Source of the DNA: Candidatus Bathyarchaeota archaeon | Lineage (GTDB): Archaea > Thermoproteota > Bathyarchaeia > Bathyarchaeales > DTEX01 | Direction: 5' to 3' | NCBI GenBank assembly: GCA_963714275.1 | Contig: CAVQNT010000002.1 | Span: forward strand, 256,001 to 320,000 | DNA length: 64,000 nucleotides | In this document: in pieces, positions 6,610-45,569 of the stretch | Layout: each line of letters opens with the position of its first letter | Numbering within the stretch: position 1 is the first letter of the stretch | Notes under the pieces: generated by a model | Told to the model about the DNA's origin: nothing | Seen by the model: only the letters and a program-made list of their open reading frames with translations | The model's database searches: none | Made by a program: the position numbers and the translations under genes

Positions 6610-6802
6610 AATTTCAATCGACGATGAAATAAAATGTACTTTAACTTTTATATAGCGTGCGCTGGTAGATACAAAAAGAGTCAATTATTCTGATAATTAA
6701 CAAAGCACGCTTTATTGTCTAGTTAGTCTATTTTTTTTTTTAGTTGCTTTTTTGAGAATCTTTCTTCGACATATTCTTTTATTTTTTGAGAAGGCTGGTT
6801 TT

Positions 6803-17755: not shown

Positions 17756-17863
17756 CCAAATCTTGGAGACCCTGCCTTATAAAATATTGCACAAAAATGG
17801 CAGAATGTGTCTGGTTTTCTAGGTAGTTAACCGTTCATTGAGCCTTTTTATTAGTCAGCTATA

Positions 17864-17960
17864 GATTCTATGACTCTTACTTTAAGATAAAGACTTTAAG
17901 ATGCAGAATCATAGAGTCCTAATTATAGATTATTTCGTGAAAATAAGTTAAATATAGTCT
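17864..17960 (+). promoter_or_regulatory. putative promoter/operator of the virus-like operon
   Basis: Imperfect 14-bp inverted repeat (17864-17877 / 17905-17918) around actttaagat x2; TTAAATA box at 17948, ~25 nt before ATG 17978. Confidence 0.45.
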
Positions 17961-17977
17961 TTTTAACATAGTTTGTT

Positions 17978-18325
17978 ATGCCTTACTGCGACAGTGACGA
18001 TGTTCGCCTTGTTTGTGGAGTCGCAGAGAACGTTATCAGCAGCGGAGACATCGGCGGTTTAATTGTTTTTAGTGATCAGGAAATTGATGACAAGATAGGA
18101 AGCAGCTTCGGGGAATCTGTGCCTACACGGATCACTCGCCTTTCTGCTCTTTTGACGTCTATCCAGATTTACAGTCGTCCAGATTTTCGTTTCCGCCTTG
18201 GAAAAGCTGGCGTTGACGAACAAACAATAGAAAAGAATCTTGACCGTTGGCAGGCTGAAGCAGACGAGATTTTCGATTTTTACAGCGAGACTGATGAGGG
18301 AGCTTTCAGGGTGGTTCAGGCTTGA
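17978..18325 (+). CDS. head-tail adaptor-like protein (gp6/gp36-like)
   Basis: MPYCDSDDVR start, ..EIDDKIG...VPTRI.RLSALL helical pattern; position in operon. Confidence 0.6.
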   Translation: MPYCDSDDVRLVCGVAENVISSGDIGGLIVFSDQEIDDKIGSSFGESVPTRITRLSALLTSIQIYSRPDFRFRLGKAGVDEQTIEKNLDRWQAEADEIFDFYSETDEGAFRVVQA

Positions 18326-18777
18326 CAGATCTTTCAGAAATTAAACAGGAGATTGTTGACATCCTCGTTGTTGATACAGAGCTTATGGAGCTTCTCGGTG
18401 AGGATCCTGCTGGAGACGTGCCTGTTTATAATGGTTGGCAGTTAGGTAAGCATCCGGTTCTTCCAAGTGTCACCGTAACTGATAGTGCTGATGTTGGAGA
18501 AATTTCTGGGCTTGGTGATGGCTTTGATGGAACAACAGTTTACGAATGGTCTTACACGGTGATCCAGATTGACGTGTGGGCTGCTAACGAAGCCTCGAGG
18601 GATGCTATTAGCGCTCAGGTCCGTAAAGCCTTGCTTAAGGCAGCTGTTGGCTTGTCAGGTTTAGGGATAGCGTTTTTGTCTTCTAACATTGTCCCGGTAA
18701 ATGAAGCTAATGAATTGATTTTCCGTCATTGTATCCGCTACACTGTTTTTTATCAGTTGGAGGTTTCGCTGGAATGA
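18322..18777 (+). CDS. tail terminator/completion protein-like
   Basis: LPSVTV...IQIDVWA....RD.I...VRKAL pattern. Confidence 0.7.
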   Translation: MTDLSEIKQEIVDILVVDTELMELLGEDPAGDVPVYNGWQLGKHPVLPSVTVTDSADVGEISGLGDGFDGTTVYEWSYTVIQIDVWAANEASRDAISAQVRKALLKAAVGLSGLGIAFLSSNIVPVNEANELIFRHCIRYTVFYQLEVSLE

Positions 18778-18914
18778 GGAACCTTATTCGGGCGTCTTTG
18801 CTTGGCGGCTTATTCATTCTTGAGCCTAAGATTGCGTTGATCGCAACTGCTGGCGTGTCATCAAGATTATTGATTAGAAATTGGAGGAGGCGAAAACTTG
18901 GAAACAAAAAATAA
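18774..18914 (+). CDS. small hydrophobic/basic peptide
   Basis: ATGA-coupled 46-aa ORF MRNLIRASLLGG...WRRRKLGNKK. Confidence 0.4.
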   Translation: MRNLIRASLLGGLFILEPKIALIATAGVSSRLLIRNWRRRKLGNKK

Positions 18915-19347
18915 GGTTGTAGCTGCTTTGCTACTAATCACCTTACTTTCATGTGTTGCAGCTGGCGTTTATGCTGCTGCTGTTTATCAGGCTACTATAA
19001 CTGGCACGGGAAAAATTGTTTCTTTAAACATCGCTGTTTACAGTGATAGTGCTTGCACAGTTAAGTTGTCTTCGATTGATTGGGGAAGCCTATCTCCCGG
19101 ACAAACTAAAACGGTTACTTGTTACGTGAAAAGCATGTCAACCGTTAATTCTACTCTTTCATTGTCAACTGGAAGCTGGAACCCGTCTTCAACGTCAACT
19201 TATGTCACTCTTTCATGGGATCATGCTGGATACAAGATTAAACCGAACGAAGTTCTCACTGTAATTTTTACTTTAACTGTTAGCCAGTCAATCACGGGGA
19301 TCTCAACTTTCAGTTTCACAATAACGATAACGGCGACGGAGGCTTAA
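18898..19347 (+). CDS. secreted beta-sandwich protein (TasA/camelysin-like pattern)
   Basis: Signal peptide ending GVYA; IDWGSLSPGQTKT..YVKS; Ser/Thr-rich beta strands. Confidence 0.6.
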   Translation: METKNKVVAALLLITLLSCVAAGVYAAAVYQATITGTGKIVSLNIAVYSDSACTVKLSSIDWGSLSPGQTKTVTCYVKSMSTVNSTLSLSTGSWNPSSTSTYVTLSWDHAGYKIKPNEVLTVIFTLTVSQSITGISTFSFTITITATEA

Positions 19348-19727
19348 TGAAAATGTTAGGCGCTTTTGATAATCCCCAAACTATCGCTGCGGTTCTCGGC
19401 TTCAGCTTCGGATTCCTTTACGGTGAAGCTTTCAGCAAATTTGATCAAGCAGTAAAATACGAGAACACTTGGTATGAAACCCTTAATCCCGTGCTCAAGT
19501 GGTTCATAGCCAGCCTTCTTGACGCTAACCACCATTTTCAATATGGGCTTGTTTTGATGTTGCTTACGTATCTCTATTCTTTGCCTCCGTTATGGCCGTT
19601 GATTTTGTGGTGGGCTGGAGCCGGTCTTGTTGTAAGCGACTTGAAAGACTACCAGTATGTTCTCGAAAGAATGGGGTTAGTGAAAGATCTCGGATCACAG
19701 ATATCAAATCAAGATCAAAAAAAGTAA
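19347..19727 (+). CDS. multi-TM membrane protein
   Basis: 3-4 hydrophobic segments, DANHHFQYG. Confidence 0.65.
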   Translation: MKMLGAFDNPQTIAAVLGFSFGFLYGEAFSKFDQAVKYENTWYETLNPVLKWFIASLLDANHHFQYGLVLMLLTYLYSLPPLWPLILWWAGAGLVVSDLKDYQYVLERMGLVKDLGSQISNQDQKK

Positions 19728-19745
19728 TGGAGGAAAAAAAGGAAA

Positions 19746-20166
19746 ATGCCAGTCTATGTCGGAAAAAACGTCTACGTGTTCATCACAGCAGACACCAGTG
19801 GAGACATGGGCGCTTTCGTTGCCCAGGAAGTTACGATTGAGCCTAAACAGGCTGTTGAAGGCTTGGACGCTCTTGGATCTGACACGATCGAAGAATGGGC
19901 TGCTGGACTAAAAACTTACGAAGGAACAATTAGGGAACCATTGAAAGTTGGAGACGACGGAGAAACTCAGCCTCGCAAGAATGTCAGCCTTGCAGGAAGA
20001 TCTCACAGAATATGATATGCAGCTGAAATTCAACAACCCAAGCGGAGACATTAGCATCAGCTTTACAGGCGTGATCTTTCCTGACGTTTCTGTTTCTGCA
20101 CCAAAGAACAAACCGGCAATAGTATCGACAAGGTTCAAAGCGAAAACCGCTGCTGTCGACACTTAA
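19746..20166 (+). CDS. tail tube protein (frameshift near 19970)
   Basis: YVGKNV...QEVTIE...ALGS...GLKTYEGTI...FTGVIF...FKAK tube-like pattern; upstream of chaperones. Confidence 0.7.
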
Positions 20167-20188
20167 GAGAATTCTCTTTTAGGAGAAT

Positions 20189-20524
20189 ATGCACTTGGAG
20201 AAAACACTGTCTTTCAATGAAGTCTTAACTAAAATTGAAACTATACGGAAACACAGCGTCTATGTTGAAGAGCTTGGCGGATCTATCCCTTATTGCGACT
20301 TGACTGTTGAGGACTTTATTGAAATCACCAAAAACAAAAACGAAGACAACACTGAGCTCAACGTTAAGATCTTCTTTAAGGCATGGCACCACGCAGACCC
20401 GAAGGTAACGCTTGAGGCAGTGAGAACTAAGATTCCTTTGCCTATAGTCCTAAAAATCGTTAAGGAAATTGTGCCAGGGCTTGTTCAAACAGTCCCTTTA
20501 GGGAATTCGCCAGGTCCGAAATAG
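20189..20524 (+). CDS. tail assembly chaperone (gpG-like)
   Basis: Position between tube and tape measure; slippery heptamer near its 3' end. Confidence 0.65.
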   Translation: MHLEKTLSFNEVLTKIETIRKHSVYVEELGGSIPYCDLTVEDFIEITKNKNEDNTELNVKIFFKAWHHADPKVTLEAVRTKIPLPIVLKIVKEIVPGLVQTVPLGNSPGPK

Positions 20525-20733
20525 GCAGACGAATTTACTTGCTCAAGCGTCTCGGTTTCAGTGTTTCGCAGATCCTTAGGATGCCGTGGAGCCAAGCGAC
20601 GTTCTGGATGGAAGCAATAGCCTACGACAATGAGCTTTGGACTTCTCGAGACGTCTCTGGAAGCCAAGAGAATTCCGAAGAAGCCTACGATCTAAACAAC
20701 TTCGCAAGGACTCTACCGAAAGCAAAGAGATGA
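20494..20733 (+). CDS. -1 frame extension of the chaperone (gpGT-like)
   Basis: C CCT TTA at 20494-20500 opens into PFREFARSEIGRRIYLLKRLG...MPWSQATFWMEA. Confidence 0.6.
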   Translation, partial: PFREFARSEIGRRIYLLKRLGFSVSQILRMPWSQATFWMEAIAYDNELWTSRDVSGSQENSEEAYDLNNFARTLPKAKR

Positions 20734-20838
20734 AATTATCACACGTGTAATAAAGCCAGAAAAGCTGTCCATTATGCCACGTGGCATAAAAGAAAAATTG
20801 ACTAAAGGGCAAGCTTTACCGAAAGCAAGGGTGAAAAA

Positions 20839-21199
20839 ATGAGCCTAACCATCGAAGTAACAGGCGTCGACAAACTTGTTGAACGCCTGAATCAAATGCA
20901 GACCATAAAAGAGCCCGTAGCGGAAGCTAATGGAGCTTTATCTCGAGAAGGTAGTCACTGACGCTAAGTCTATTGTGCCCGTTAGAACTGGCACCCTTCA
21001 GCGAAGCATCATGTTTTCAGGGGGAGATGGAGAATACCAAGTTGGTAGCCGAGTTTTTTATGCGCCTTTCGTGGAATATGGGACCTCGAGGATGCGTCCT
21101 CAACCTTTTCTCGGTCCTGCTCTTTTGTGGAACATTCCAGCTTTGAAAGAAGCCTTGCTGGACATTGTTGGAGATTGGCTTAGGAGACGTGGAGAATGA
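20839..21199 (+). CDS. HK97 gp10-like neck/tail completion protein (frameshift near 20929)
   Basis: AK..VPVRTGTLQRSI...YAPFVEYGTSRMRPQPFLGPA. Confidence 0.85.
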
Positions 21200-22482
21200 G
21201 CGTCCAACTTCCAGAACTTGTTACCACCGCTCGAGTTGTAGATGAAGCTTCGGACACTTTGAGGCAAATTGCGACTAACGCAAAGGGTTCTATGAGTGAT
21301 ATGGAGACTGCTGCACGTCAAGTTGAAGATGCTCATAAGCAGATGAATGCTGGGCTTAAAGACGTAGTCACAGGGTTCAGCGGTGTTGCCACTTCAGCCT
21401 TTGCCCTTTACAATGCTTATGATCGAGTTACAACTTCAGAAGTTGCGCTTGACCGAGCTAATCTTGTTGTTAAAACAAGCGCTAACGCCGTAGAAGATGC
21501 GCAGAACAAATTGAATGCTGCCGTAGAAAAATATGGTCCAGACAGCATTCAAGCTCAGTCTGCAGCTAAGGATTTCACTCGCTCAAGAACGGTATCAAGT
21601 GGCTGTTGAACGTGCTGATACTTGCTCAGGGTAATCTTAATCAATCAATGGTAAGTGCAGCTATTCAAGTTATTCCGTCAGTCATCACAGCAATATCCAG
21701 CCTTTCTAAAATGACGGGCGGAATCGACAAAGTCACCGAGTCCCTGGGAATATTGTCCAGTTCTGGAGGTTTGGGGGGAGTAACTGAAGCCATGGGCGCA
21801 GCGTCCGCTGGATCCTCAGGTTTAGGCGTCGCTTTAGGCGCATTAATTGTTCCGATAGCCGCTGCGACCGCTGCGGGACTTGCATTAGTTGGAGCTTTAG
21901 CAGCTATAGGATCCTGGGCAAAAGCGCAATATGACAGTTTGAATATGTCAGCAGAGGCAACAGCGAAAGCAAGCAACATGATGGATGATTACACGGAATC
22001 AATTATCGAAAATGCTAAAGCTAAGCAGCCCTGGCGTCTGGAAGCGCATCTTCTACGCCTACCGTAACAACAACAACCACGACAACGACCACAACTCCAG
22101 CATCTACCGTGACAACTCCGACTGTTGTGGTGAATCCAACAACAACACCTACTCCGGCACCTGCGTCAACAGTTGTAGCGGGAGGGGGAGGAGATAACAT
22201 AAGTAATGATGATGCAGGAAGGAGGCTTCGGAATTGTTGACAAGCCTACCCTGTTTTTGGCTGGAGAACACGAGCCTGAAGCTTACTCTTTCTGTCCCGC
22301 AAGCAAGGTGGGAATTCTCCTCCTTTGAAAGGTCTTTAACGATTAATTTTAGTCCAAACATTCAATCAGGACCCGTTTACGGTGTTAGGGGAGTCCGTGA
22401 GCTCGCTGACCTCTTGTATGATGAATTTAACAAGAGGATCCGTAACGAACTGAAAAGCAGAACATTGTATTTGGAGAGGTAA
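21196..22482 (+). CDS. tape measure protein (several frameshifts)
   Basis: ARVVDEASDTL N-terminus, Ala/Gly-rich helices, C-terminal MQEGG..VDKPTLFLAGE.EPE motif. Confidence 0.75.
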
Positions 22483-22485
22483 AAG

Positions 22486-23310
22486 TTGGCTGTAACCCTA
22501 AAGGCTGGAGCGAATAGTCTTGAGCTTGGAGTTGTAAGAGGTCTTCCCTTCACTCATTCAGGCCGTATTGCAGAGGTTGATTTGCCCGGTAGCCGTGGTT
22601 CAAGCCGTCAGGATCTTGGTAAAGAGCCTATGCGAATAACGTTTCAGGCGCCTTGACTGGTGATGACCGTTACGAAAACTTCGATCAGCTCGAAAGGTAT
22701 AGAGGCCTTGGTTACGGCTTAAAGCTTGAAAGTCCATACCTCAACACTATTGCTTTTTTGGATAGCGTTAATCTTGCGGGCATCAGAAAAACGGTGCTGG
22801 ACTACAGTCTTAGGTTGACGGAGAGCAAGTTTAAAAGTCTTGATAATTGCGACACAAAGGATCAGTGGCATTCGGATGACGGCGGAGACCAGACTCTTGA
22901 GAATGCTGATCCCTTGCCGAAGGAAGGCGAATACTGTTTCAAGCACACTGAGACCGCTGACACAGTTCTGGATTTACAACGATTTCGACATTGTAGATTT
23001 ATCAAATTATGATTACATAGCGTTCTGGTTCTACGTGAACTGCATTGACCTGACTTCTCTCGAATTAAAGATTTATAATGACAACAATAACACTTGGCTG
23101 AGTTACGATTTTCTGCCTTTAATCACGGAAGCTAACAAGTGGCACCGCATACTTCTTCACAAGTCCGAATTCACGGTTCATTATAGCGGAGACCCTCCAG
23201 AAGAGGTCTCGTTCGACTGGAGCGCCCTAGAGGAATTCTTTTTTGAGTTTACTAGAGCGGATTCTCAAGAGATGGTTTTCTGTTTTGACGATTTGGGAGC
23301 GTATGAGTAG
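22486..23310 (+). CDS. distal-tail (Dit)-like protein with C-terminal carbohydrate-binding-like domain (frameshifted)
   Basis: LPG..G...QDLG.EPMRITF N-domain; DLSNYDYIAFW...NKWHRI...FDWS...FDDL jelly-roll pattern. Confidence 0.55.
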
Positions 23311-23328
23311 GTTTCATGGTGATTAAAA

Positions 23329-24045
23329 ATGACAAGATACGTAAATGAAGATGCTGAAACGAAGGTTCAAGTTCTGGATAGTAATGGAGACCCAGCGACT
23401 GGAGCAACGGTTCTCTACAAAATATATGATGAGGCAGACGTGCTTTTCGATTCTGGTTCGATGAGCCATATTGCAGACGGCATTTTTACTTTACAGTGGA
23501 CACCCGATGCTGTTGGCGAGTGGACTTTCGAAGCTTACAGTTCTAATCCTAAGTTCAGAGATTCAAAGGTTTACAAGATTGAGTCTATCTTAGCTTTCAA
23601 GCATAAACCAGACATATACGACCTTCATGAACCACCAGACCTAAACACATGGTATACCCCGCTCGACGTTAGTGGCGGAGCAAGAGTTAAACTGGTAGCG
23701 ATAGAGCAAACTAATGATGAATCTAATGCTAAGGACATTGAGTATGAGTTCACTATTGATGGCGAAGTTTATACTGAAACTTACCCATGCGCTCATGGCA
23801 AGTATTACTCGTTTGTTACAACTTATCACGGTGGCATAGAGCCTATTGAGGGATATGAACAAGTAGCTACGTTCGGAGTTCAGAAAAGAGACTACATATC
23901 CGCTACTGTCGAAGAAATTGAGTCTTCAGAAGGATTTTCAGAAATGCACGCATTCAAATTTAGATACCGTATGACTTCAGCGCCAGGCACAAACCAAGAG
24001 ATGCATTGCGTAATTATCTATGACAAATTAGAGAAAGTGACTTAG
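23329..24045 (+). CDS. virion structural protein (Ig-like N-terminus)
   Basis: Beta-rich, acidic; GGTGA RBS; tail-tip region. Confidence 0.55.
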   Translation: MTRYVNEDAETKVQVLDSNGDPATGATVLYKIYDEADVLFDSGSMSHIADGIFTLQWTPDAVGEWTFEAYSSNPKFRDSKVYKIESILAFKHKPDIYDLHEPPDLNTWYTPLDVSGGARVKLVAIEQTNDESNAKDIEYEFTIDGEVYTETYPCAHGKYYSFVTTYHGGIEPIEGYEQVATFGVQKRDYISATVEEIESSEGFSEMHAFKFRYRMTSAPGTNQEMHCVIIYDKLEKVT

Positions 24046-24078
24046 TTCACGTTTAAAAACGCTTTGAAGTGAACTTTC

Positions 24079-26354
24079 ATGATTGAGCCAGTGATAATTG
24101 ACGATGAATCCATTGACGAAGAGGACATAACCGTCCGCGCCTTAACCAACTTTCAGACATCACTTGTTGTGCCACGTGGAATCTTCAACGACAATTTTGA
24201 GGGCGAAAACGGACATCCTCCCGACCACGGTAAGTGGATTCGTTTCTTTTGCGGAGATAGCTTGTCTGAGCAGGGTTACGGAGAAAAATACTGTGACATC
24301 CAAGATGGAAGGCTTCGGATGCAGATGAACGGCGACGGAAGCGGAGACGGATGGTTCTACCTGAACTGCATGACTCGTGCTGAGTTTAAGGTGCCCTTCA
24401 GCCTTTCATTTCAAGTAACGATTGAGCATAATGTCGGTCAATGCGGAAACCACTTCATGTTTTCTTTCGTGGATCCTGACCCTAACCGCGGATTTCTGCT
24501 TAATTCTAAACTTTACGGAGATACTCCAACTACATTGTGGGCTTTCGATGACTATGAAGGGACTGATTACTGCTGGGTGCTTAATTGTTATGGAGGCATG
24601 GTTATTAGCGGAGAGAACGCTTGGGAGCCTGACCACGTTTACAACGTTTCCCTCGTTCCAGATTTCACTGATTCTCATTCGACCATTCTCACTATCACGG
24701 ACAATGAGACTGGTGACATAAAATTTCAGACTAATCAAAACTTGGTGGATCCGCAAGTAAAATATTTGCGGGCGATGTTCAGCGTTTACGAGTGGGCTGA
24801 AACCTTCACAGCGTTCACCGTATTTTATGTCGACAATTTCAGCGTTGTGAGATCTACAAGCAAAAAGGCGAAGGCTGTCGTCAGCATGGCTCACTCAGTG
24901 TTGTGGCATGATGGTGACGTTGGTAACCTGTTGGAGGAAGCTAACAGCTTGCTGCGATTTCCTTTTATGGTCAAAGGTTTACTCAACCTGAAGACGGAGC
25001 TTTAACTTCGCTTAGTTTTTTTTCGACTGGTGGTCAGGACGTTCGCATTCTGCTTTATGATAGTGCTGGGAACATTCCTGGCTCTCCCCTGACTGAAAGC
25101 ATTGAGGTTGAAGGCACAGCTGCGGGCTGGAACCAGGTTGGAGTCGGCGGGGTTAGTCTCGATGAAGGCGTTGATTACTGGATTGTTTTTGATATGAGTG
25201 CTGGAGGCGGAGTTCGTTTTAGTGGTGATGGTGGGCATCGTGCTTTCATCGAGGATAGCTGGCATTATGGAGACCCGTTTCCTGACCCTTGGGCTGGAGG
25301 AGAATATGATACAGGCTATCAAGCTGAGGTTTTCTGGATTTATGAGGTATCAGCTCACACTGACATCTTAATAGCGAGTGATGATGTTTCTGACATTAAC
25401 GTTTCTTTAAGGGACAGCTGTTACCCTTCTTCTTCAGTCACGCTTGACAATAAGCACGGGCAATATGACGACATCAGAATCATGGATGAAATCGAGATTC
25501 GTGCTGGCTGGGATCATATTTTGTGGCTTCTTTTCAGGGGCTACATTGACATTCCAGAATTCAGTTTTCCTCCTGCAACCGTGGAGATCTCGAGCAGCAA
25601 GGGCTACGCTTCTGCGCTTGAGTTTAGGGAAACTGATGAAGAATCTTGGGTAGATGAGGATTCCGAAGATATCGTGCAGAGCTTGATAGAGAATTATTAT
25701 GATGATTCTCAATTCACACCTGACTGGATTGATGAAGGCATAGAAATCAGCCTTGACAGTGACGATGAGCCTGTTAGTGAGGTTCTGCAGAAAGTTGCGG
25801 AGATGAATGGTTTTATCGTTTATGTTGACTTTAACAAGGCTGTTCATTTTGTTGACCCTGACGATGATTCTACGCAGAGTAATCTCAGCATTTCTAAGGC
25901 TGAAGACGTGGTGAGCATAAAAAACCGTCTTGTTGACTCGATTGTTAACAGGGTTACGGTGAAAGGCGCTGAAGACAATGTTACAGTTGAAGATGAAGAT
26001 AGTCAAGACGTTTATTGGCGCCGGGACAGGACTTTCACTGATGAGAAGCTAACGAGCTTAGCAGCTGTCACCGCAAGGGCTAATGAGATTCTCGCAAAAA
26101 TGAAAGATCCTTACCAAGAGGTCCCGATTGTTCTTCCCGAATTCTATCTTCTGGAACTGAATGACGTTCTAACTGTTTATTGTGATGCAGTCGGTTTCAG
26201 CGACCCTGATGAAGGCGAATTGATAACGGTGAAGGGTGTAACTTACAATTTTAATCCTTCTGGGCTTCGGACTACGATTAGCGGGGTAAACAGGGGCTTC
26301 GTTGTCTCTGACGTTCTTAGTGATCATGACAAAAAGTTGAAGGGGATATCTTAA
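24079..26354 (+). CDS. baseplate hub/Tal-like protein with lectin-like N-terminal domains (frameshifted)
   Basis: DNFE...W repeats; C-terminal IEIRAGW...LFRGYID, NRVTVKG, EDSQ..Y.RR hub pattern. Confidence 0.65.
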
Positions 26355-27080
26355 ATGACGGGCAGGATGCAGCACGGGACAATTCATTACACTGCTTCCG
26401 AGATTCAAGCGATGGCTGGAGGAGGTCTAGGCGGGGGAGCTGTACCGATCGGTGCGATTCTCATGTGGAGCGGGACTTTGCTTACAATTCCGTCAGGTTA
26501 TCAACTGTGCGACGGCACGAATAGCACTCCTGACTTAAGAAGCAAGTTTGTGAAGGGAGCTGCTATTGGACAGAATCCCGGAGGATCAGGGGGAGGCACA
26601 ACTTACGGTCATGCTGGAGGATCTGTCACAAGGGGGACAGCTGGAGTAACAATAAACAATGAATCTTCTCACACTCACGCTAATTCTGCGAATACGGGTG
26701 CTGGATCAGCTCACACTCACACCGTTGGAACGACAGCGGTGACTCCGACTACTCATAGCAGTCAGGGCGGGCACACTCACAATTCGCATACCACGGCAAC
26801 AAGGGGCACAAGTGGAAGCACCGCTGTGACGGGACCTTCAACTCATGACAATCAGGGAGCTCACACTCATGATAACCACGGTTTGACTTGGGGACCTGCT
26901 AACGAGTCTACTCACACGCATCCAATAGGGGGAAGCACTGGCACGGGCACAGCTCACAGTCACGGTGTAACTGAGCCTAATGCTGGCGCTGGTCATGATC
27001 ATGGTTTTACTCAGCCAAGTGACCACACTGGCGTTGAGCCTTCGTATTATGCTGTCGCATTCATTATGAGGTTGACCTAA
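26355..27080 (+). CDS. tail fibre with collar domain and HxH needle
   Basis: VPIGAILMWSG...PSGYQLCDGTNSTPDLR.KFVKGA; seven HxH; P.YYAVAFIMR C-terminus. Confidence 0.85.
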   Translation: MTGRMQHGTIHYTASEIQAMAGGGLGGGAVPIGAILMWSGTLLTIPSGYQLCDGTNSTPDLRSKFVKGAAIGQNPGGSGGGTTYGHAGGSVTRGTAGVTINNESSHTHANSANTGAGSAHTHTVGTTAVTPTTHSSQGGHTHNSHTTATRGTSGSTAVTGPSTHDNQGAHTHDNHGLTWGPANESTHTHPIGGSTGTGTAHSHGVTEPNAGAGHDHGFTQPSDHTGVEPSYYAVAFIMRLT

Positions 27081-27082
27081 AA

Positions 27083-27256
27083 ATGTCTGGGACGATTGAG
27101 GAACATGAAGCCGAATTTATCAGGGGATTCTTAGCGGAAGCTCGGGAGATTCAAAGGAAATACGGGATTAACAAGTCTGAAGCCTTGGGGATCCTGGTTC
27201 TTCTGGAGCTAAAGAAGATTCACAGCCACCTTGATAAAACGGAGGGTTCTGAATGA
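27083..27256 (+). CDS. small helical hypothetical protein
   Basis: 57-aa ORF coupled to both neighbours (ATGA overlap at its 3' end). Confidence 0.5.
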   Translation: MSGTIEEHEAEFIRGFLAEAREIQRKYGINKSEALGILVLLELKKIHSHLDKTEGSE

Positions 27257-27516
27257 CTGCTTGGGGAAGCAAGAGAAGTAGGCTTGAAATTTACTTGGAC
27301 GTCCTGAAGGTTTTGCGGAAGGGAGAATCCAGGCCTACACGGATAATGTATCAGTCAAATTTGTCGTGGAAGCCTTTGGTACAGATTCTTGATAGTTTAG
27401 TGAGGCAGGAAATTATCGAAGTAACCCAAGACAACTTTCACAGTGTTTACCGCTTAACCAAAAAAGGCGTCAATGTTCTGGAATATTTCAAAAATGTAGA
27501 ACTGGAGACTGATTGA
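27253..27516 (+). CDS. archaeal winged-helix regulator (ArnR1-like)
   Basis: KRSRLEIYLD...PTRIMY.SNLSW...Y.LT.KG. Confidence 0.85.
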   Translation: MTAWGSKRSRLEIYLDVLKVLRKGESRPTRIMYQSNLSWKPLVQILDSLVRQEIIEVTQDNFHSVYRLTKKGVNVLEYFKNVELETD

Positions 27517-27877
27517 AACGACAAACATTGATCTAAGCGAATTCAAAAAGGGAGATCTTATTCGTGTTGACTGGTTCGACGCTTCAAGGGGACAGGCCTT
27601 AACGATCCGTGGAAGGCTGGATATCCCCGTTTACAGTTGGGGAATCTACTTAGGAGTTCTCGGACAGAAAAGGAGACATATCGTTCTCGCACAAAACAGC
27701 TTCAAGCTTAACAACGAATTCTATGACGTCGATTACACCTGCATCCCTGTGAGCTTCCTTGACGGTATAACGGTAATCCATAAAGCTGAGCTCTCGCCTG
27801 ACGTCGCAGAGCTGTTGTTGTTAAGCTTCACTTCTGGGCGTAGGCGCATAATTAAGGAGAGAACTGTAAATGCCTAA
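27512..27877 (+). CDS. hypothetical protein (start codon unclear)
   Basis: Open frame KGDLIRVDWFDAS...PVYSWGIYLGV...IVLAQN. Confidence 0.55.
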   Translation: METTNIDLSEFKKGDLIRVDWFDASRGQALTIRGRLDIPVYSWGIYLGVLGQKRRHIVLAQNSFKLNNEFYDVDYTCIPVSFLDGITVIHKAELSPDVAELLLLSFTSGRRRIIKERTVNA

Positions 27878-28079
27878 ACCTGAGAAAGAGCCCAGGATAA
27901 CAATTAAGAATCTCGGCATCAGAATCGGCACGGCTGACTATCGTTTTCTTATTGCCCTGATCCTCACCCTTGGCCTTATAGTTGTTCTCGTTAAGGGAGA
28001 CGTGGAAAGCGGTAAAGTCCTTTCACCCCTTGTTCTTCTTGCGGTTGCATGGTATTACAAAGACAAAGTGAAAAGGTGA
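27870..28079 (+). CDS. small 2-TM protein (holin-like position)
   Basis: Two TMs, basic C-terminus. Confidence 0.5.
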   Translation: MPKPEKEPRITIKNLGIRIGTADYRFLIALILTLGLIVVLVKGDVESGKVLSPLVLLAVAWYYKDKVKR

Positions 28080-28082
28080 TTT

Positions 28083-28552
28083 GTGATGCCGAAGGGTAAG
28101 CCTTGGACTAACGATGAAGAAAAGCAGCTTAGAACAATGTTGGATGAACGGAAGCACATTGACTTTATCGCTCAAACTCTTAGTAGATCTAAGGAAAGCG
28201 TTAAAGTAAAAATTAAGAGGATTGGAATAGAAGTTGTTGTCACCCCCGTTTCAGGTCTCACAACAACTTCTGATTTAAGTTCTTCCAGTGGAGCTTCCAA
28301 GCGTTGAGGAAACGCTCAAAACTTTGTGTGCTGCCATAAATTCTCTTAAAGCTCGAGGTCTTGACCAGGCTGAAGTTTTCCGTTTACGGACTATGATTCA
28401 GGGTTGTAAGATCTACAAGGAGCTTCTTGCGGACTACATCAATTATCGCGGGATTGAAATGAGAATAGATGAAGATGGAGGAAGATTATGGACGTCTATT
28501 ATCGGAGGCCAAGGGCGTGGCGGGCAAACCTGCTGTTTCCAAGGTGGTTTAA
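28083..28552 (+). CDS. candidate terminase small subunit (HTH N-terminus; frameshifted)
   Basis: MPKGKPWTNDEEKQL HTH/Myb-like start followed by helical domain; directly upstream of TerL. Confidence 0.5.
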
Positions 28553-28621
28553 CGCTCAGGACCTTAAGCAGCAATTTGATGAAATTAAGGTCTCGCAGGC
28601 GATGGAGTCAGTAATGATCCT

Positions 28622-29936
28622 GTGACTTTTTTTGAGCAAGTGGTGGGATTCAAACCCACGTCTTACCAGGTTAACTTTATCAAAATGTTTCAGGAAAAAC
28701 AGTTTATTGCAGCTCGGTGGTGTCGTCAGTCAGGTAAGAGCTGGATTATTTCAGCGTTGCTTTTGTGGTATGCCCTGACGCATGATGACAGTTATATCGC
28801 TGTCGTAGGTCCTTCGTGGAGACAGACGAAGCTCATCATCAGACGTATAACCTATTTTCTGCGTAAAGTCCCTCCTGGAATGTTCACGAAGCCACTGAAG
28901 ACTGTGATCAGGTTCCCTAACGGAAGTGCATAGAAGCTTTCCCGAACAATCCTGACACTATCCGAGGTCCAACGCTTCAAGTCGTGTATTGCGATGAAAT
29001 GAATTTTATTCGTGATGATGAAGAGCTCTATGATGCCTGCCTGTTCACACTTGGCACGACTAACGGGAAATTCGTTTGTAGCATGCAACACCTTGGAATA
29101 CTGACAGCATTTTCTACAAGATTTTTAACCACAAAGATTACGAAGACTTTGCTAAGAGTCATGTTACCTGGCACGATGCTGAGGAGCCTAATGGACCTTT
29201 AAAAAAGAACATCCTAGACAAGATCCGTAAACAATTCGCTGAGGATCCCTGGAGATGGAAAAGGGAGATGGAGGCAGATTGGTCAGAGGACGAAAATGTG
29301 TGGTTACCGCAATCTTTGATAACAAAGTGCATCGGAACAGAACGGTCTTGCGGAGAAGACCTTGATCTGGCTAATCCTGACATCGGACAAAGGGGACGGT
29401 ATTATGGTGGGCTGGACTTTGGCAAACATGGAGACTACACAGCCTTCACAGTTATCGACAGCGTAGCTGACAAGTTCTTACTTAGATACATGAAGATATG
29501 GCCACTCGAGACGCCTTATGCTTCAGTCATCGGCTTCGTTAAGCAGATTCAGGACCGCTGGAGTAACTTCATAACGATTCGTGCTGACCAAACAGGAATA
29601 GGCGACTATATTGTTGAGGATATGAAGAACGGCGGAATCCTGAATGTTGAAGGAGTCACCTTCAGCCTTCCCAGAAAACAAGAGATGGCGAGCCTTCTCA
29701 AACAGAGGATGATGGACAACAAATTCTATTATCCCTATTTCACTTGGGACAAGCCTTACCGCAGCGAATACGTTGCTGAGTTGAATGTTGAAAGGTTCAG
29801 CCTAAGGAAAGATGGCACCATCGTTCTTAATCATCCTCAAGGCACCCATGACGACGTCTTTTGGTCGACAGCACTCGCCTTGTATGCTACAGTTGAGATG
29901 AAGCCTATTGATCCTGACGGATTCAGGTTCGGGTGA
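28622..29936 (+). CDS. terL: terminase large subunit (frameshifted; true start slightly upstream)
   Basis: Walker A WCRQSGKS, Walker B YCDE, RNase H-like GLDFG...D, ADQTG.G, HDD. Confidence 0.9.
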
Positions 29937-29942
29937 TAGATA

Positions 29943-31376
29943 ATGAAAGATTTGCGGATCCACAAATTTAGGCGCCTTTACGATAGGTCAACGGGAAAGT
30001 TTACAGTTGATATTAAATATTCCACGAGAGCTGACATCACTCCTAGGACTATTGGGGTTGCTGAAGCCTTCGGACTGGGCATTGATGAAGCAAAACTGCA
30101 CGTCATTTACGATAACGCAGAATTCCAGATTGGCCAATCAGATATCGTTTACATCACTGGCGAAAGCGGTTCTGGAAAGTCCGTTTTGCTACGGGCTTTT
30201 GAGAAGGACCTGGGAGATGAAGCTCTTAAACATTGATAGCCTCACGCTGGATCCTGACAAGCCTCTTATTGAAACCGTAGGTAAGGACCTGAATGAAGCC
30301 CTCGAGCTTTTGAGCAGAGTTGGGCTGAATGACGCTTACCTGTTTCTCAGAAAATACCGGGAGCTCAGCGACGGACAGAGATATCGTTACAGGATAGCTA
30401 AGCTCATAGAGTCAGGTAAACAGTTCTGGATAATGGACGAGTTCTGCGCCACATTGGACCGTGAGACTGCGAAGATCGTAGCCTTTAACGTGCAGAAACA
30501 AGCCAGGAGGACAGGCAAAGCCGTGATTGTGGCAACTACGCACACTGATCTCCTTGAGGACCTTGCCCCTTCAGTACACATCCATAAGGGTTGGGGGAAA
30601 CGTCTTGAAGTCAATTATTATTCTAACCAGATTAACATTGTTTGCAGTGTTTCGAGGGATCTTAGAATCGAGGAGGGCTCCATGAAGGACTATGAAGCGT
30701 TAGCGGAATTCCATTACCGCAATGTAACTGCTCATCCGGCTCCAATTAAGACCTTCACGTTATGGCGAAGCGATAACGAGCTTGCAGGCGTCATCGTCTA
30801 CTCTTATCCTCCGCCACAGATTTTCGGGCGTAAGGAAGTCTGTTGGAAGAAGTCTTCCGATTCAGGAATTGAACGAGAAACTTGCGTCAATCAGCCGGGT
30901 TGTTCTTCACCCGAAATACCGCAGCATAGGCTTAGGCGCATATCTTGTTAGGGAAACGCTGCCCCTATGTGGAAGACGCTACGTTGAAACTATGGCTGTT
31001 ATGGCGCAGTACAACCCTTTCTTTGAGAAGGCGGGAATGAAGAGAATCGCTGAAAGAAAATCAGATACATCAATCACTGAAGCTATAGATAGCCTTGAGC
31101 AGCTAGGCTTCAAACCCTACCTCTTATCCAGCCAACAAGCAAACATCAACAAGCTAGATACATTAAGCGAAACTCAACTAAACAAAGTGCAAGAAACACT
31201 CTTACAGGTCAAGACAGTATATTATAAAAGGCTACGGTCAACAAGCGAAATCTTCCTTAAAAAAGAAGAGTTTGGAAAATGGCTACATACAGACTTCTAA
31301 TGACATCACAGCTAAAGTAATTACTCGTTTGTCAGTTCTCGCTGAAACCAAAATTTACCTGTTCTGGGAGAATTGA
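29943..31376 (+). CDS. ABC-type ATPase fused to GNAT acetyltransferase (frameshifted)
   Basis: GESGSGKS, LSDGQ, IMDEF, ATTH; ISRVVLHPKYRSIGLG acetyl-CoA motif. Confidence 0.8.
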
Positions 31377-43584: not shown

Positions 43585-43960
43585 AGGATTCCCTTTCCTG
43601 TTTCCAAGCACTTAATACAATGCTCTGGTGTTATATCAAAGTTACTTAAAACTTTTCTATAATATTTGTGAACTTCAAACATAGACTATAATCCAATATA
43701 GAACTCTTGTTATGACCCGATGGTTAACATGGTTCTCCATGACCTGAAAAGATAACAAACTATGCAAAAGATGAGCAGTTAATAATAAAAATAAAACAAA
43801 GCTTGGAAAAAACCAGAAAATACTTTAACTCAACAAACAAGGTTGACTGGACTCAAAGGTTCTATCAATATACTTCTGATTTGATGAAACAGAAATAGCT
43901 GTCTAGATATTAAATTATGTGTTGGTTTTAAACGGTTCCTGCATATTGTAAACCTTTATT

Positions 43961-44230
43961 TTATTTGATTTCTATGAGTTGCATGGCTTCGTGGAAGTAG
44001 TTGAGCACGTTTATGCCTTTCTCTGTGATCTTGTAGGTTATGTGGCATCCCAACTCTTCAGAAGTAATCAGCTTTTGCTCTATCATTGTGTCGAGAACAT
44101 GCTTAAGAGGTTTCCAAGAAAGATTAGTTCGATACATAATTCGTGTTGGCTTGTCGACACCTTTCTTTATTGCCTGTAAAATGTCAAGGTAAATTTCAAT
44201 CCGTGAACGTTTAGTACTCACATTAAACAC
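43961..44230 (-). CDS. archaeal winged-helix regulator (ArnR1-like)
   Basis: KRSRIEIYLD...PTRIMY.TNLSW...YKITEKG. Confidence 0.85.
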   Translation of the reverse strand: MFNVSTKRSRIEIYLDILQAIKKGVDKPTRIMYRTNLSWKPLKHVLDTMIEQKLITSEELGCHITYKITEKGINVLNYFHEAMQLIEIK

Positions 44231-45518: not shown

Positions 45519-45569
45519 GACAGAGATTATCACCCAAATATTCAGAAAGAACGAAGGAGAAGCAATCAA

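What the first reader, a model, noticed from the sequence alone, without database searches (positions are those of the whole stretch)
17978..31376. Headless archaeal virus-like machine: complete non-contractile tail plus terminase, but no portal, protease or capsid
Seen: a 13.4-kb operon running adaptor, terminator, tube, chaperones, gp10-like, TMP, Dit, hub, fibre, regulator, holin-like, TerS-like, TerL and ABC-GNAT. No portal, maturation protease, HK97 capsid, sheath, replication gene or adjacent integrase is recognisable, and it is flanked by host genes (ABC exporter, map). Known: F-type tailocins keep tails but lose terminase, GTAs keep heads, and capsid-forming satellites lack tails. Inference: tail plus packaging motor without a head fits none of these. 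It could be a domesticated archaeal tailocin/injector, a split GTA with head genes elsewhere, or a satellite that supplies tails and terminase to a helper's capsids. A provirus that simply lost its head module remains the null hypothesis.
Basis: partly seen in the sequence, partly recalled or inferred. Interest (0 to 1): 0.85.

Follow-up and report, generated by a model that had tools for sequence, protein, structure and literature searches.

The report
Head-less half of an archaeal provirus
This is the tail-and-DNA-packaging half of a tailed virus integrated in a Bathyarchaeia-like archaeon; it lacks its capsid genes here, but matching capsid gene sets lie elsewhere in the same genome, so it looks more like a broken or split provirus than a new kind of machine.

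Summary
Window 17820-31379 carries connector, tail, TerS-position, TerL and ABC-GNAT genes and no portal, protease or capsid gene. The interpretation needs revising.

- **Assembly quality:** the assembly is noisy. At least 12 frame breaks fall in about 6.5 kb of this block, with TerL in 3 frames and ABC-GNAT in 4. Conserved host genes show 0.31 breaks per kb.
- **Head genes exist in the genome:** a second copy of the block, with the same ends, lies on contig C6. Two portal-protease-scaffold-MCP modules also lie on C6, one of them 11 kb upstream of that copy.
- **Relatives are complete:** several relatives run head, tail, TerS, TerL, ABC-GNAT without interruption. Tail followed by terminase is therefore the normal layout of this provirus lineage.
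- **Possible link to the orphan head:** a 2.7-kb repeat occurs only twice. One copy sits beside the orphan head module and the other 11 kb upstream of this block, in the same orientation.

Best reading (0.6): a provirus half separated from its head by rearrangement, deletion or misassembly.

One rival stays open. A same-genus genome has an intact head-less version bounded by host-like genes. A conserved capsid cassette sits at a fixed, separate locus in several genera of the family, which hints at a dispersed, GTA-like system.

The parts
17820..17977 (.). Left edge of the conserved block plus the non-coding leader before the first gene.
   Evidence: Nucleotide homology to the C6 copy starts at 17820, matching C6:337545. 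An 80-nt stretch (17895-17974) is 85% identical to C2:343201-343279, a third junction copy. A 902-nt contig of run X4 aligns only over 17820-18418 (table 8).
17978..18325 (+). Adaptor-position protein, 115 aa.
   Evidence: No Pfam or PHROG hit. Homologues open the same gene order in G012, G002 and G010. The name rests on position only.
18322..18777 (+). Tail terminator/completion-like protein, 151 aa.
   Evidence: PF11367 E=0.0023 and phrog_78 E=0.0014, both weak. Homologues were found in 5 of 401 genomes of the order: G000 (two copies), G012, G009, G176 and G002.
18898..19727 (+). Two small genes: a 149-aa beta-rich protein with a signal or TM segment, and a 126-aa membrane protein.
   Evidence: No family hits. 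The 149-aa protein has homologues at varying positions in G040, G041, G278, G341, G346 and L127x.
19746..20166 (+). Tail tube gene, read in two overlapping frames.
   Evidence: It matches single 141-aa ORFs in G012 and G002 at 62-65% identity. The G012 protein hits phrog_290 at E=0.007, the PHROG that a Phage_tube_2 protein of G040 hits at E=2.8e-19. The frame change is shared with the C6 copy.
20189..20733 (+). Two ORFs in the tail-assembly-chaperone position.
   Evidence: No family hit. They are conserved in C6, G012 and G002. The name rests on position only.
20806..21199 (+). HK97 gp10-like / Neck1 tail completion gene, with a frame break at 20929.
   Evidence: phrog_5 E=1.2e-18 and PF04883 E=1.8e-6, matching only the C-terminal part of the profiles. 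C6 reads through in one frame. Contigs of three runs lack the base at 20929 (table 4).
21196..22485 (+). Tape measure protein. It has at least 2 frame breaks, and the stretch where the two copies do not align is about 480 nt shorter here than in C6.
   Evidence: Weak TMP PHROG hits. The intact G012 homologue hits TMP families at E=7e-18. Frames are shown; the length difference comes.
22486..23310 (+). Dit-position protein, in 3 frame segments.
   Evidence: It aligns to 269-aa single ORFs of G041, G278 and G346, and to the intact 274-aa C6 copy, with 2 frame changes. The C6 protein hits phrog_184 baseplate hub at E=0.005, which is weak.
23329..24045 (+). 238-aa tail-module protein of unknown role.
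   Evidence: No family hit. Tandem paralogues occupy the same position in G339 and G341.
24079..26354 (+). Tail hub protein, split into two frames (24079-25005 and 25194-26354).
   Evidence: It aligns to single ORFs of 574-703 aa in G339, G041 and G278 with 1 frame change. The G339 protein hits phrog_1887 tail protein at E=7e-4. Homologues were found in 19 of 401 genomes of the order.
26355..27080 (+). Gly/His-rich tail fibre protein, 241 aa.
   Evidence: phrog_5795 tail protein E=6.9e-14; phrog_2097 tail fibre E=5e-8.
27083..27516 (+). A 57-aa ORF followed by a winged-helix regulator of 87 aa.
   Evidence: HTH_45 E=1.2e-19. The genome holds many paralogues.
27533..27868 (+). Conserved small gene, here called 'X125', that precedes TerS/TerL or ABC-GNAT in relatives.
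   Evidence: Homologues occur in 54 of 80 ABC-GNAT loci. No family hit for the G040 homologue. No ORF of at least 56 aa with a standard start is listed here.
27870..28079 (+).
   Evidence: No family hit. The role is inferred from size and position only.
28083..28614 (+). TerS-position gene, in 2 frames.
   Evidence: It aligns to 137-181-aa ORFs of G040 and G331 with 1 frame change. The G040 homologue hits phrog_323 'D5-like regulator' at E=9e-7 and no TerS family.
28595..29936 (+). Terminase large subunit, in 3 frames.
   Evidence: PF03237 in the N-terminal part and PF17289 (E=4e-6) in the C-terminal part. Single ORFs of 446-486 aa in G040, G009, G278 and G331 align with 2 frame changes. The breaks are a 1-nt deletion at 28927 and a 2-nt insertion near 29083, neither in a homopolymer.
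29943..31376 (+). ABC-ATPase-GNAT fusion gene, in 4 frame segments.
   Evidence: ABC_tran and GNAT hits. Intact 473-529-aa homologues exist in G040, G009, G278, G041 and G002. The family has 206 relatives in genome contigs.
4072..6759 (.). 2.69-kb repeat R. Its only other copy lies 260 nt after the orphan head module on contig C6.
   Evidence: 99.2% identical to C6:69684-72367 in direct orientation, with 11 substitutions and 5 indels. A HEPN_AbiV hit was found among the 36 flank ORFs; its assignment to the 243-aa ORF in R is my inference.
43900..52200 (+). Multi-copy integrase module: wHTH at 43961-44230 and tyrosine recombinase at 51263-52198. It may be the right end of the same provirus.
   Evidence: PF00589 hit at window 51530-51982. 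Homologous modules lie at C6:363-370 kb, after the C6 copy, and on C10 and C4. The integrase of G040 lies 4 kb after its ABC-GNAT. No shared 15-mer was found that could mark att sites.

Best explanation
Window 17820-31379 is the tail-morphogenesis and DNA-packaging half of a temperate tailed provirus (Caudoviricetes) of a lineage common in Bathyarchaeia.

**Normal layout (shown).** Complete members of the lineage run portal, protease, scaffold, HK97-type capsid, connectors, tube, tape measure, Dit, hub, fibre, small regulators, TerS-position gene, TerL, ABC-GNAT. An integrase module lies further downstream. Tail followed by terminase is therefore the normal order.

**What is unusual here.** Only the missing head half is unusual. 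This copy cannot build virions on its own.

**How it got this way (inferred).** The head half was separated by a rearrangement or deletion in a region that is a mosaic of mobile and defence DNA. Alternatively, the assembler separated it at a 2.7-kb two-copy repeat.

**State of the genes (partly shown).** The block diverged from its paralogue under purifying selection, as a working virus would. It now carries more frame breaks than the assembly's error rate predicts. That suggests recent inactivation, although assembly error cannot be excluded.
For: 1. **Complete relatives.**
   - L127x carries portal, protease, scaffold and MCP at 12.6-16.6 kb, TMP at 23.8 kb, TerL at 28.5-29.8 kb and ABC-GNAT at 30.0-31.4 kb on one strand.
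   - L127x is collinear with G000 C6:320963-326163 plus 338716-352521.
   - L140x has an MCP 4 kb upstream of its TMP.
   - G041 has portal (phrog_146, E=2.5e-41), protease, scaffold and MCP (phrog_264, E=7.7e-22) upstream of a homologous tail module.
   - G331 has protease, scaffold and MCP upstream, and TerL and ABC-GNAT downstream.
2. **Same genome.**
   - A paralogous block lies at C6:337545-352735 (78-91% nt identity, same ends).
   - A head module lies 10.9 kb upstream of it, and a second head module lies at C6:63.7-69.4 kb.
   - The two head modules are 80-87% identical to each other, much as the two tail blocks are.
3. **Link through repeat R.** R has only two copies. One lies 260 nt after the orphan head module, and the other 11.06 kb before this block. 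Both are in direct orientation, as are the head and tail genes. My rough estimate of the chance of such placement is about 0.003-0.006.
4. **Selection.** dN/dS between the two blocks is 0.22 over 3,654 codons, with dS 0.54. For TerL segments it is 0.01-0.13.
5. **Frame breaks.** There are 12 in about 6.5 kb here, against 16 in 50.9 kb of 43 conserved host genes (binomial P=2e-5).
6. **Surroundings.** They are accessory DNA: AbiV, NB-ARC/TPR, methyltransferases, ParB and an integrase. There is no synteny with congeners left of 53.8 kb.
7. **Literature.** A passage of PMC13573593 (read via find) reports that 90.9% of predicted archaeal provirus regions are incomplete fragments.
Against: - **Head-less relatives.** The three outside genomes that share this block's connector/tube genes also show no head gene next to the adaptor.
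  - G002:C4 has an intact element bounded on both sides by host-like genes (80-95% identical to G000 genes) and no portal or MCP inside it.
  - G009:C19 has host-like genes directly upstream.
  - In G012, the 306-aa ORF two genes upstream of the adaptor belongs to a ConA/polysaccharide-lyase-like family, not to capsids.
  - A recurring head-less layout fits simple decay poorly.
- **The left edge may not be a deletion end.** It coincides with the start of the conserved module in every comparison, so a deletion end there is not demonstrated.
- **The frame-break excess could be artefactual.** Local low coverage or strain mixture could produce it, because the assembly also breaks 14 of 43 conserved host genes.
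- **No att sites.** No shared 15-mer was found.
- **The junction at 17.8 kb is unconfirmed.** No read or contig was shown to cross it.
Confidence: 0.6

Rival explanations
1. Split but working system. The tail-terminase block acts in trans with a head module encoded elsewhere (here C6:63.7-69.4 kb). It would form part of a dispersed, host-retained, virus-derived particle system in this archaeal family, comparable to a gene transfer agent with scattered loci.
For: - **G002 (same genus, intact ORFs).** It has adaptor, tail, TerS, TerL (459 aa) and ABC-GNAT (529 aa) bounded by host-like genes. Its capsid cassette lies on another contig.
- **A remnant at the orthologous site.** G000 keeps a 39-aa ABC-GNAT remnant at C3:117796-117912. 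This suggests the G002-type element is an old resident of the genus.
- **A conserved capsid cassette.**
  - A protease-142aa-MCP(315 aa)-98aa cassette occurs in 8 of 47 family genomes.
  - MCP identity across 5 genera is 73-90%.
  - In G002, G005 and G012 it follows the orthologue of G000 C1:24759-25298. G000 has an empty site there.
- **Co-occurrence.** All 3 genomes with an intact block of this type (G002, G009, G012) have the cassette (hypergeometric P=0.0035; relatedness is not corrected for).
- **Selection.** TerL was under strong purifying selection.
Against: - G000 itself lacks that cassette (0 matches). Its head modules are of another type.
- The head module upstream of the C6 copy carries in-frame stops in portal and MCP.
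- This block has at least 12 frame breaks.
- G010 shows cassette and tail remnants 6 kb apart on one contig. That fits one ancestral provirus that later decayed.
- Many family genomes keep only ABC-GNAT or fragments of it, which points to decay.
- No expression or particle data exist.
Confidence: 0.2
2. Assembly artefact. The true genome has head module A, repeat R, about 11 kb of cargo and this tail block on one molecule. That would be a complete provirus with a large insert, like the C6 copy. The assembler joined the wrong flanks at the two-copy 2.7-kb repeat.
For: - R has two copies. They lie next to the two orphan halves, in the orientation that would make them collinear.
- The head-to-tail distance would then be about 14 kb, against 10.9 kb in the C6 copy.
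- The assembly is visibly error-prone.
Against: - The two R copies differ by 11 substitutions and 5 indels, so they are distinct loci.
- Both are internal to long contigs (545 kb and 1,007 kb).
- A 2.7-kb repeat is normally spanned by long reads.
- The 11 kb between R and the tail holds an ABC transporter operon and sugar-metabolism-like genes, which would be unusual provirus cargo.
Confidence: 0.12
3. Domesticated tail device, that is, an archaeal tailocin or injector that needs no head.
For: - A full non-contractile tail gene set is present without local head genes.
- A glycosidase-bearing connector protein and lectin-like proteins in relatives suggest cell-surface targeting.
Against: - A DNA-packaging terminase and a head-tail adaptor have no role in a tailocin. 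Yet TerL is the most strongly conserved gene between the two copies (omega 0.01-0.13).
- Complete relatives are ordinary proviruses.
- Frame breaks fall in TMP, Dit and hub.
Confidence: 0.04

Closest known systems
Bathyarchaeia tailed proviruses described in print (BATPV1/BATPV2 in PMC11705971; 'Fuxiviridae' and 'Kunpengviridae' in PMC10848311). I read passages only; supplements were closed.
   Same: The host class is the same, judged from the record titles of related loci. The hallmark genes are the same: TerL, tube, tail components, wHTH regulators and an integrase. Locus L141 lies in the record that the paper names as the BATPV1 host contig, and it carries the related tube-hub-X125-TerS-TerL-ABC-GNAT cluster. 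A PF05065 capsid hit lies just upstream, if contig C37 of G401 is that record.
   Different: This copy has no MCP, portal or protease. Its connector, tube and TMP genes belong to a different module set from the L141 type. The passages I read mention neither an ABC ATPase nor an acetyltransferase: the find terms 'abc' and 'acetyltransferase' gave 0 occurrences in both papers.
Defective (cryptic) prophage remnants
   Same: Part of a provirus is retained without the genes needed for autonomy. It sits among other mobile and defence DNA, it carries frame breaks, and related fragments are scattered in the genome.
   Different: The retained 13.6 kb is a complete functional module with sharp, recurrent ends. 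It still shows strong purifying selection against its paralogue. Related head-less blocks recur in other genomes.
Gene transfer agents such as RcGTA (recalled knowledge, not tested here)
   Same: Virus-derived head, tail and terminase genes are kept in a host genome and can be spread over several loci. The family-level pattern of a capsid cassette at a fixed host locus plus a separate tail-terminase locus resembles this.
   Different: There is no evidence of vertical inheritance of this block. G002's version is only 30-73% identical in protein, whereas host genes are 80-95% identical. G000 lacks the cassette. Packaging of host DNA has not been tested.
F-type tailocins (recalled knowledge)
   Same: A non-contractile tail gene set without capsid genes.
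   Different: Tailocins lack terminase and head-tail adaptors. Here TerS-position, TerL and adaptor genes are present and conserved.
Capsid-forming phage satellites, cf-PICI (recalled knowledge)
   Same: A partial virion gene set that depends on another element. The orphan head module followed by an integrase at C6:63.7-73.4 kb has that look.
   Different: This block is the mirror image: it has tail and TerL but no capsid. No helper relationship has been shown.

Membership tests
Complete tailed provirus (Caudoviricetes) | HK97-fold major capsid protein encoded in the element | tested here: not met
   No hit in the block or in 36 flank ORFs. In the genome, phrog_264 hits only C6, and PF05065 hits nothing.
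Complete tailed provirus (Caudoviricetes) | Portal protein encoded in the element | tested here: not met
   phrog_146 hits only C6:63.7-64.5 kb and C6:320.9-322.1 kb. PF04860 gives no hit. tblastn with the G041 portal hits only C6.
Complete tailed provirus (Caudoviricetes) | Large terminase subunit | tested here: inconclusive
   Both domains are present, but the gene is read in 3 frames in this assembly. Whether the breaks are real is unknown.
Complete tailed provirus (Caudoviricetes) | Tail module (tube, TMP, distal tail, hub, fibre) | tested here: met
   plus homology to tail modules of complete relatives. Several of the genes carry frame breaks.
Complete tailed provirus (Caudoviricetes) | Integrase and att sites bounding the element | tested here: inconclusive
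   An integrase lies 20 kb downstream, in a module that also follows the C6 copy. No direct repeat of at least 15 nt was found.
Defective provirus fragment | Homologous complete proviruses exist that contain the missing module next to the retained one | tested here: met
   L127x, L140x, G041 and G331, and the C6 copy with an 11-kb insert.
Defective provirus fragment | Inactivating lesions beyond the assembly error rate | tested here: inconclusive
   1.85 frame changes per kb here against 0.31 per kb in host genes (P=2e-5). Local assembly quality is unknown. No clear nonsense codon was found away from the frame junctions.
F-type tailocin | Absence of terminase and head-joining genes | tested here: not met
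   TerL, the TerS-position gene, the adaptor-position gene and the gp10-like gene are all present.
Gene transfer agent | Capsid, portal and terminase genes retained in the genome, possibly at separate loci | tested here: inconclusive
   Head modules are present on C6, but one carries in-frame stops, and no functional link has been shown.
Gene transfer agent | Vertical inheritance at a fixed host locus across related genomes | tested here: not met
   This block has no counterpart at the same site in 6 congeners. The related G002 element sits at another site. The criterion is met only for the separate MCP cassette in other genomes.
Gene transfer agent | Packaging of random host DNA into particles | not testable with these tools
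   This needs particle purification and sequencing.
Phage satellite | Dependence on a helper virus for the missing virion parts, with its own mobilisation genes | not tested
   No excision, replication or helper-interference genes were identified in the block. An integrase lies 20 kb away.

The most novel reading that the evidence does not exclude
In this Bathyarchaeia family, virus-derived head genes and tail-plus-terminase genes are kept as separate chromosomal loci that work together in trans. That would be an archaeal, GTA-like dispersed particle system. The window block would be the tail-and-packaging locus of one such system, and its capsids would come from the module at C6:63.7-69.4 kb.
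Probability: 0.17. Interest if true: 0.85.

Novelty: new member of a known kind. Interest (0 to 1): 0.4.

Why it matters
As it stands, this is one more incomplete archaeal provirus, which is the commonest state of such regions. Three by-products have more value.

1. **A lineage layout.** The work defines the layout of a widespread Bathyarchaeia provirus lineage. The terminase lies after the tail genes, and a conserved ABC-ATPase-GNAT gene closes the late operon. That gene outlives the rest of the provirus in many genomes, so it is a candidate host-beneficial 'moron' or defence gene.
2. **A recurring split arrangement.** In several genera of the family, a capsid cassette sits at a fixed host locus while an intact tail-terminase element sits elsewhere. 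If these cooperate, this would be a gene-transfer-agent-like system in an abundant, barely cultivated sediment archaeal class.
3. **A warning about the assembly.** Gene integrity in this noisy assembly cannot be taken at face value.

Tried and rejected
**Leads that gave nothing decisive**
- *att sites.* No 15-mer is shared between the left flank and the region after the integrase, in the window or on C6.
- *Empty site in congeners.* Synteny starts only at Mre11 (window 53.8 kb). Left of that, congeners match other G000 contigs, so the borders could not be set this way.
- *tRNA genes.* None in the window.
- *Nonsense codons as a decay signal.* The stops inside alignments lie next to frame junctions, and they occur in host genes too (8 in 25,463 aligned aa). 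This is not informative.
- *ORF-coverage statistic.* The block ranks at the 14th-18th percentile of 844 genome windows, which is not decisive.
- *Protein Atlas.* Both upstream ORFs of relatives returned only unnamed clusters.
- *PDB sequence search with the ABC-GNAT profile.* It returned only generic ABC nucleotide-binding domains.
- *Integrase-module hypothesis for the alternative join at R.* C6:72.3-82 kb shows no similarity to the modules.

**Candidates for hidden head genes, rejected**
- G040's 333-aa protein is a tube-domain relative of G002_546 and G009_551.
- The G012 306-aa protein belongs to a ConA/polysaccharide-lyase-like family.
- The G002 737-aa and G009 843-aa proteins are glycosidase-like. 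G009_843 has a head-closure (Hc1) domain at its C-terminus, to which the C-terminus of G002_737 is similar.
- The weak PF04860 hits in G002 and G009 are a 384-aa gene in a conserved host context, not part of a head module.

**Public runs**
- The best holder had only 0.15 of the sampled words.
- Laid contigs are mostly 85-95% similar fragments of relatives.
- None was shown to bridge 17.7-18.0 kb.
- Depth is near zero at 31.3-32.4 kb in three runs, but a part without cover proves nothing.
- No habitat or strain claim is made from these runs.

**Not done**
- No structure prediction or complex prediction was run.
- Supplementary tables of PMC11705971, which hold the provirus coordinates and gene lists, could not be seen. 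They may bear on whether L141 overlaps BATPV1.

Full report
**Setting.** The window is G000:C2:256001-320000, in a genome of 2.64 Mb and 10 contigs. Relatives of the block's last gene come almost entirely from records titled Bathyarchaeia, Bathyarchaeota or similar: by my count of the titles, 75 of the 80 loci kept. The host is therefore most likely a member of that archaeal class. This is an inference.

**What is in the sequence.**
- A co-oriented run of ORFs occupies 17978-31376 on the + strand.
- Family searches support these calls:
  - an HK97 gp10-like neck protein (phrog_5 E=1.2e-18);
  - a weak tail-terminator match;
  - a weak tape-measure match;
  - a winged-helix regulator (HTH_45 E=1.2e-19);
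  - both domains of a large terminase;
  - an ABC ATPase fused to a GNAT acetyltransferase.
- Scans of intact homologues add a tape measure (E=7e-18), a tail fibre (E=6.9e-14) and weak tube, Dit and hub matches.
- The adaptor, chaperone, 'holin-like' and 'TerS-like' labels rest on position only.
- No ORF of the block matches a portal, protease or capsid family.
- Thirty-six flank ORFs of at least 90 aa (1-17.8 kb and 31.4-52.3 kb) gave methyltransferases, ParB, AbiV, NB-ARC/TPR, an M24 peptidase, an ABC transporter and an integrase. They gave no head protein among the 25 of 36 matched families that were shown.
- The observation of a head-less tail-plus-terminase block is therefore correct.

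**Gene integrity.**
- Against single-ORF homologues from other genomes, the window shows these frame changes:

| Gene | State in the window |
|---|---|
| TerL | 3 frames |
| ABC-GNAT | 4 segments |
| Dit | 3 frames |
| Tape measure | at least 2 breaks |
| Hub | 1 break |
| gp10-like | 1 break |
| TerS-position gene | 1 break |

- The two TerL lesions are a 1-nt deletion and a 2-nt insertion, neither in a homopolymer.
- The assembly is noisy in general.
  - From 179 long ORFs sampled from a same-order genome, 43 pairs passed my filter (best hit at least 45% identical, coverage at least 60%).
  - Of these 43 conserved host gene pairs, 14 show frame changes.
  - That is 16 changes in 50.9 kb, or 0.31 per kb.
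- The block has 12 changes in about 6.5 kb of alignable coding sequence, or 1.85 per kb (P=2e-5). The paralogous copy has about 9 in 8.2 kb.
- The excess suggests real, recent lesions. Locally poor consensus cannot be excluded.

**A second copy and two head modules in the same genome.**
- C6:337545-352735 is a paralogue of the whole block. It is 78-91% identical in nucleotides and has the same left and right ends.
- Between the two copies, dN/dS is 0.22 over 3,654 codons with dS 0.54. The TerL segments range from 0.01 to 0.13. The two copies therefore diverged as working genes.
- With head proteins from a relative's complete provirus, I found homologous modules only on C6. The G041 proteins used were portal (phrog_146 E=2.5e-41), protease, scaffold and MCP (phrog_264 E=7.7e-22).
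  - One module lies at 63.7-69.4 kb.
  - The other lies at 320.9-326.6 kb, which is 10.9 kb upstream of the C6 tail block.
- The two head modules are 80-87% identical to each other. This is about the same divergence as between the two tail blocks.
- The genome thus holds two heads and two tails. One pair is adjacent. The other pair is split between contigs C6 and C2.

**Relatives.**
- Hub homologues occur in 19 of 401 sampled genomes of the order.
- Terminator homologues occur in 5 of 401.
- ABC-GNAT has 206 relatives in the species collection, of which 80 loci were kept.
- Among those 80 loci, TerL lies directly upstream in 55 and the small gene X125 in 54. No portal or MCP of my two reference types lies within the 10-kb flanks (0 of 80). 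Those flanks are too short to reach a head module.
- I extended 10 tape-measure-type loci upstream. Eight were extended by 20 kb and two by only 2.1-2.4 kb. The results:
  - L127x shows portal, protease, scaffold, MCP, 149-aa gene, TMP, X125, TerS, TerL and ABC-GNAT contiguously. It is collinear with the C6 head module plus the C6 tail block.
  - L140x has an MCP 4 kb before its TMP.
  - Five loci have a different TerL about 20 kb upstream, with ABC-GNAT as the last gene. One of them (L128x) also showed a protease match.
  - Three loci showed none of my reference head genes.
- G041 and G331 likewise carry heads upstream.
- A published Bathyarchaeia provirus, BATPV1 (33,358 bp), lies in the record that holds locus L141, which carries a related cluster (passages read).
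- A PF05065 capsid hit lies about 1.7 kb before the start of L141, if contig C37 of G401 is that record.
- Tail followed by terminase and ABC-GNAT is therefore the normal gene order of this lineage. Only the absent head is abnormal here.

**Why the head is absent.**
- A 2.69-kb sequence, R, occurs exactly twice in the genome at 99.2% identity (11 substitutions, 5 indels).
  - One copy lies 260 nt after the orphan head module (C6:69684-72367).
  - The other lies at window 4072-6759, which is 11.06 kb before the tail block.
  - Both are in direct orientation, and the head and tail genes point the same way.
- An exchange at R would give head, R, 11 kb, tail. That resembles the C6 copy, whose gap is 10.9 kb.
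- This placement is unlikely by chance. My rough estimate is 0.003-0.006.
- It points either to a real rearrangement between repeats or to a wrong join in the assembly. I cannot tell which.
- The region is a mosaic of mobile and defence DNA.
  - Synteny with five congeners begins only at window 53.8 kb.
  - A multi-copy integrase module at 43.9-52.2 kb also follows the C6 copy.
  - A third copy of the junction before the adaptor gene lies at C2:343.2 kb, about 1 kb before an IS-like repeat.

**Evidence that keeps a bolder reading alive.** The three outside genomes that share this block's connector and tube genes do not show a head next to the adaptor either.
- **G002 (same genus).**
  - All ORFs of the element are intact.
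  - The element runs adaptor, a 737-aa glycosidase-like protein whose C-terminus resembles the head-closure end of G009_843, terminator, a 546-aa tube-domain protein, tube, gp10-like, TMP, TerS-position gene, TerL and ABC-GNAT.
  - Host-like genes, 80-95% identical to G000 genes, flank it on both sides.
  - G000 keeps a 39-aa ABC-GNAT remnant at the orthologous site.
- **G009.** Host-like genes lie directly upstream of its first gene.
- **G012.** The 306-aa ORF two genes upstream of the adaptor belongs to a lectin/polysaccharide-lyase-like family.
- **The capsid cassette.**
  - All three genomes carry, on other contigs, a compact cassette of protease, a 142-aa protein, a 315-aa MCP and a 98-aa protein.
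  - The cassette occurs in 8 of 47 genomes of the family.
  - Its MCP is 73-90% identical across five genera.
  - In G002, G005 and G012 it follows the orthologue of G000 C1:24759-25298. G000 has an empty site there.
- **G010.** The cassette lies 6 kb upstream of a reduced tail remnant on one contig.
- These facts fit either an old provirus decaying in pieces or a host-retained, dispersed particle system.
- G000 itself lacks the cassette, so the pattern bears on the window only by analogy.

**ABC-GNAT.** This gene closes the late operon in every layout seen. It persists alone or beside fragments at conserved host loci in several genera. In G001, for example, TerL is cut down to 44 aa beside an intact 527-aa ABC-GNAT. 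That is how prophage 'moron' or defence genes behave. This is an inference; no specific solved relative exists.

**Verdict.**
- The most likely reading (0.6) is a provirus half separated from its head.
- The trans-acting split system gets about 0.2, misassembly at R about 0.12, and a tailocin-like device about 0.04.
- The finding is a new member of a known kind.
- The family-wide split of capsid and tail-terminase loci is the part worth following up.
- I found no description of a tailocin or gene transfer agent in Bathyarchaeia, nor of the ABC-GNAT gene, in two full-text searches and in term searches of three papers. Supplementary tables were closed.

Noticed in passing
L163 (G002:C2), L165 (G005:C53), L161 (G012:C61), L164 (G009:C28), L166, L167, L168: A compact cassette of protease-like (263-318 aa), a 142-147-aa protein, an HK97-type MCP (315-329 aa) and a 98-105-aa protein, with no portal or terminase beside it. 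It occurs in 8 of 47 genomes of the family. MCP identity is 73-90% across five genera. In G002, G005 and G012 it follows the same host gene. G000 has an empty site at C1:25298-25447.
   Followed up: partly
Window 29943-31376; loci L064-L143: The ABC-ATPase-GNAT fusion is very widespread in Bathyarchaeia: 206 relatives, about 52-57% identical across most of the kept loci. It is always the last gene of the late operon. It often survives alone at conserved host loci after the rest of the provirus has gone, for example in G137, G103, G165, G022, G014 and G001.
   Followed up: partly
Window 4072-6759 and G000 C6:69684-72367: A 2.69-kb two-copy repeat (99.2% identical) holding a 243-aa ORF and a 479-aa ORF. 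A HEPN_AbiV hit and an NB-ARC hit were found among the flank ORFs. Assigning them to these two ORFs is my guess.
   Followed up: partly
Window 43900-52200; C6:363-370 kb; C10:2.6-22 kb; C4:11.8-16.2 kb: A multi-copy integrative module (wHTH regulator, several small genes, tyrosine recombinase) with at least four related copies in the genome. It lies downstream of both tail-terminase blocks and, in G040, 4 kb after ABC-GNAT.
   Followed up: partly
   Followed up: no
Whole genome G000: 14 of 43 conserved host genes show frame changes relative to orthologues (0.31 per kb). The assembly carries many indel errors, so any pseudogene call in it is unsafe.
   Followed up: yes
L158 (G002:C2 local 14950-16104) and L160 (G009:C12 9499-10653): A 384-aa gene with weak portal-family similarity (PF04860 E=4.5e-6). 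It is homologous to two genes that follow the MCP in G331. It lies in the same host gene context in two genera and is absent from that site in G000.
   Followed up: partly
L146:12443-14656 (G002) and L145:11174-13705 (G009): Large connector-region proteins that pair glycoside-hydrolase-like domains with a head-closure end. G002_737 has DUF2341 plus GH43/GH130-like domains. G009_843 has a rhamnosidase-like domain and a C-terminal Hc1 domain (phrog_501), to which the C-terminus of G002_737 is similar.
   Followed up: no
G000 C3:117796-117912: A 39-aa remnant of an ABC-GNAT gene lies next to the host gene that flanks the intact element in G002. This implies loss of a G002-type element from this genome.
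   Followed up: partly
Window 19930-20070 and C6:339660-339800: Both copies of the tube gene change frame at about the same place relative to the single 141-aa ORFs of G012 and G002. They differ from each other by a 2-nt and a 1-nt indel. This could be a shared old lesion, a programmed frameshift or a systematic assembly error; it is unexplained.
   Followed up: partly
G000 C2:338.8-345.3 kb (outside the window): A third copy of the region that precedes the adaptor gene ends after the first codons of the adaptor, about 1 kb before a 1-kb multi-copy IS-like repeat (98.8% identical to C7:28053-29044).
   Followed up: no
Window 7149-7433 and 17540-17755: Two paralogous small membrane-protein genes on the minus strand, about 80% identical in nucleotides. 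One lies just after repeat R and the other just before the tail block. A further copy lies on C10.
   Followed up: no
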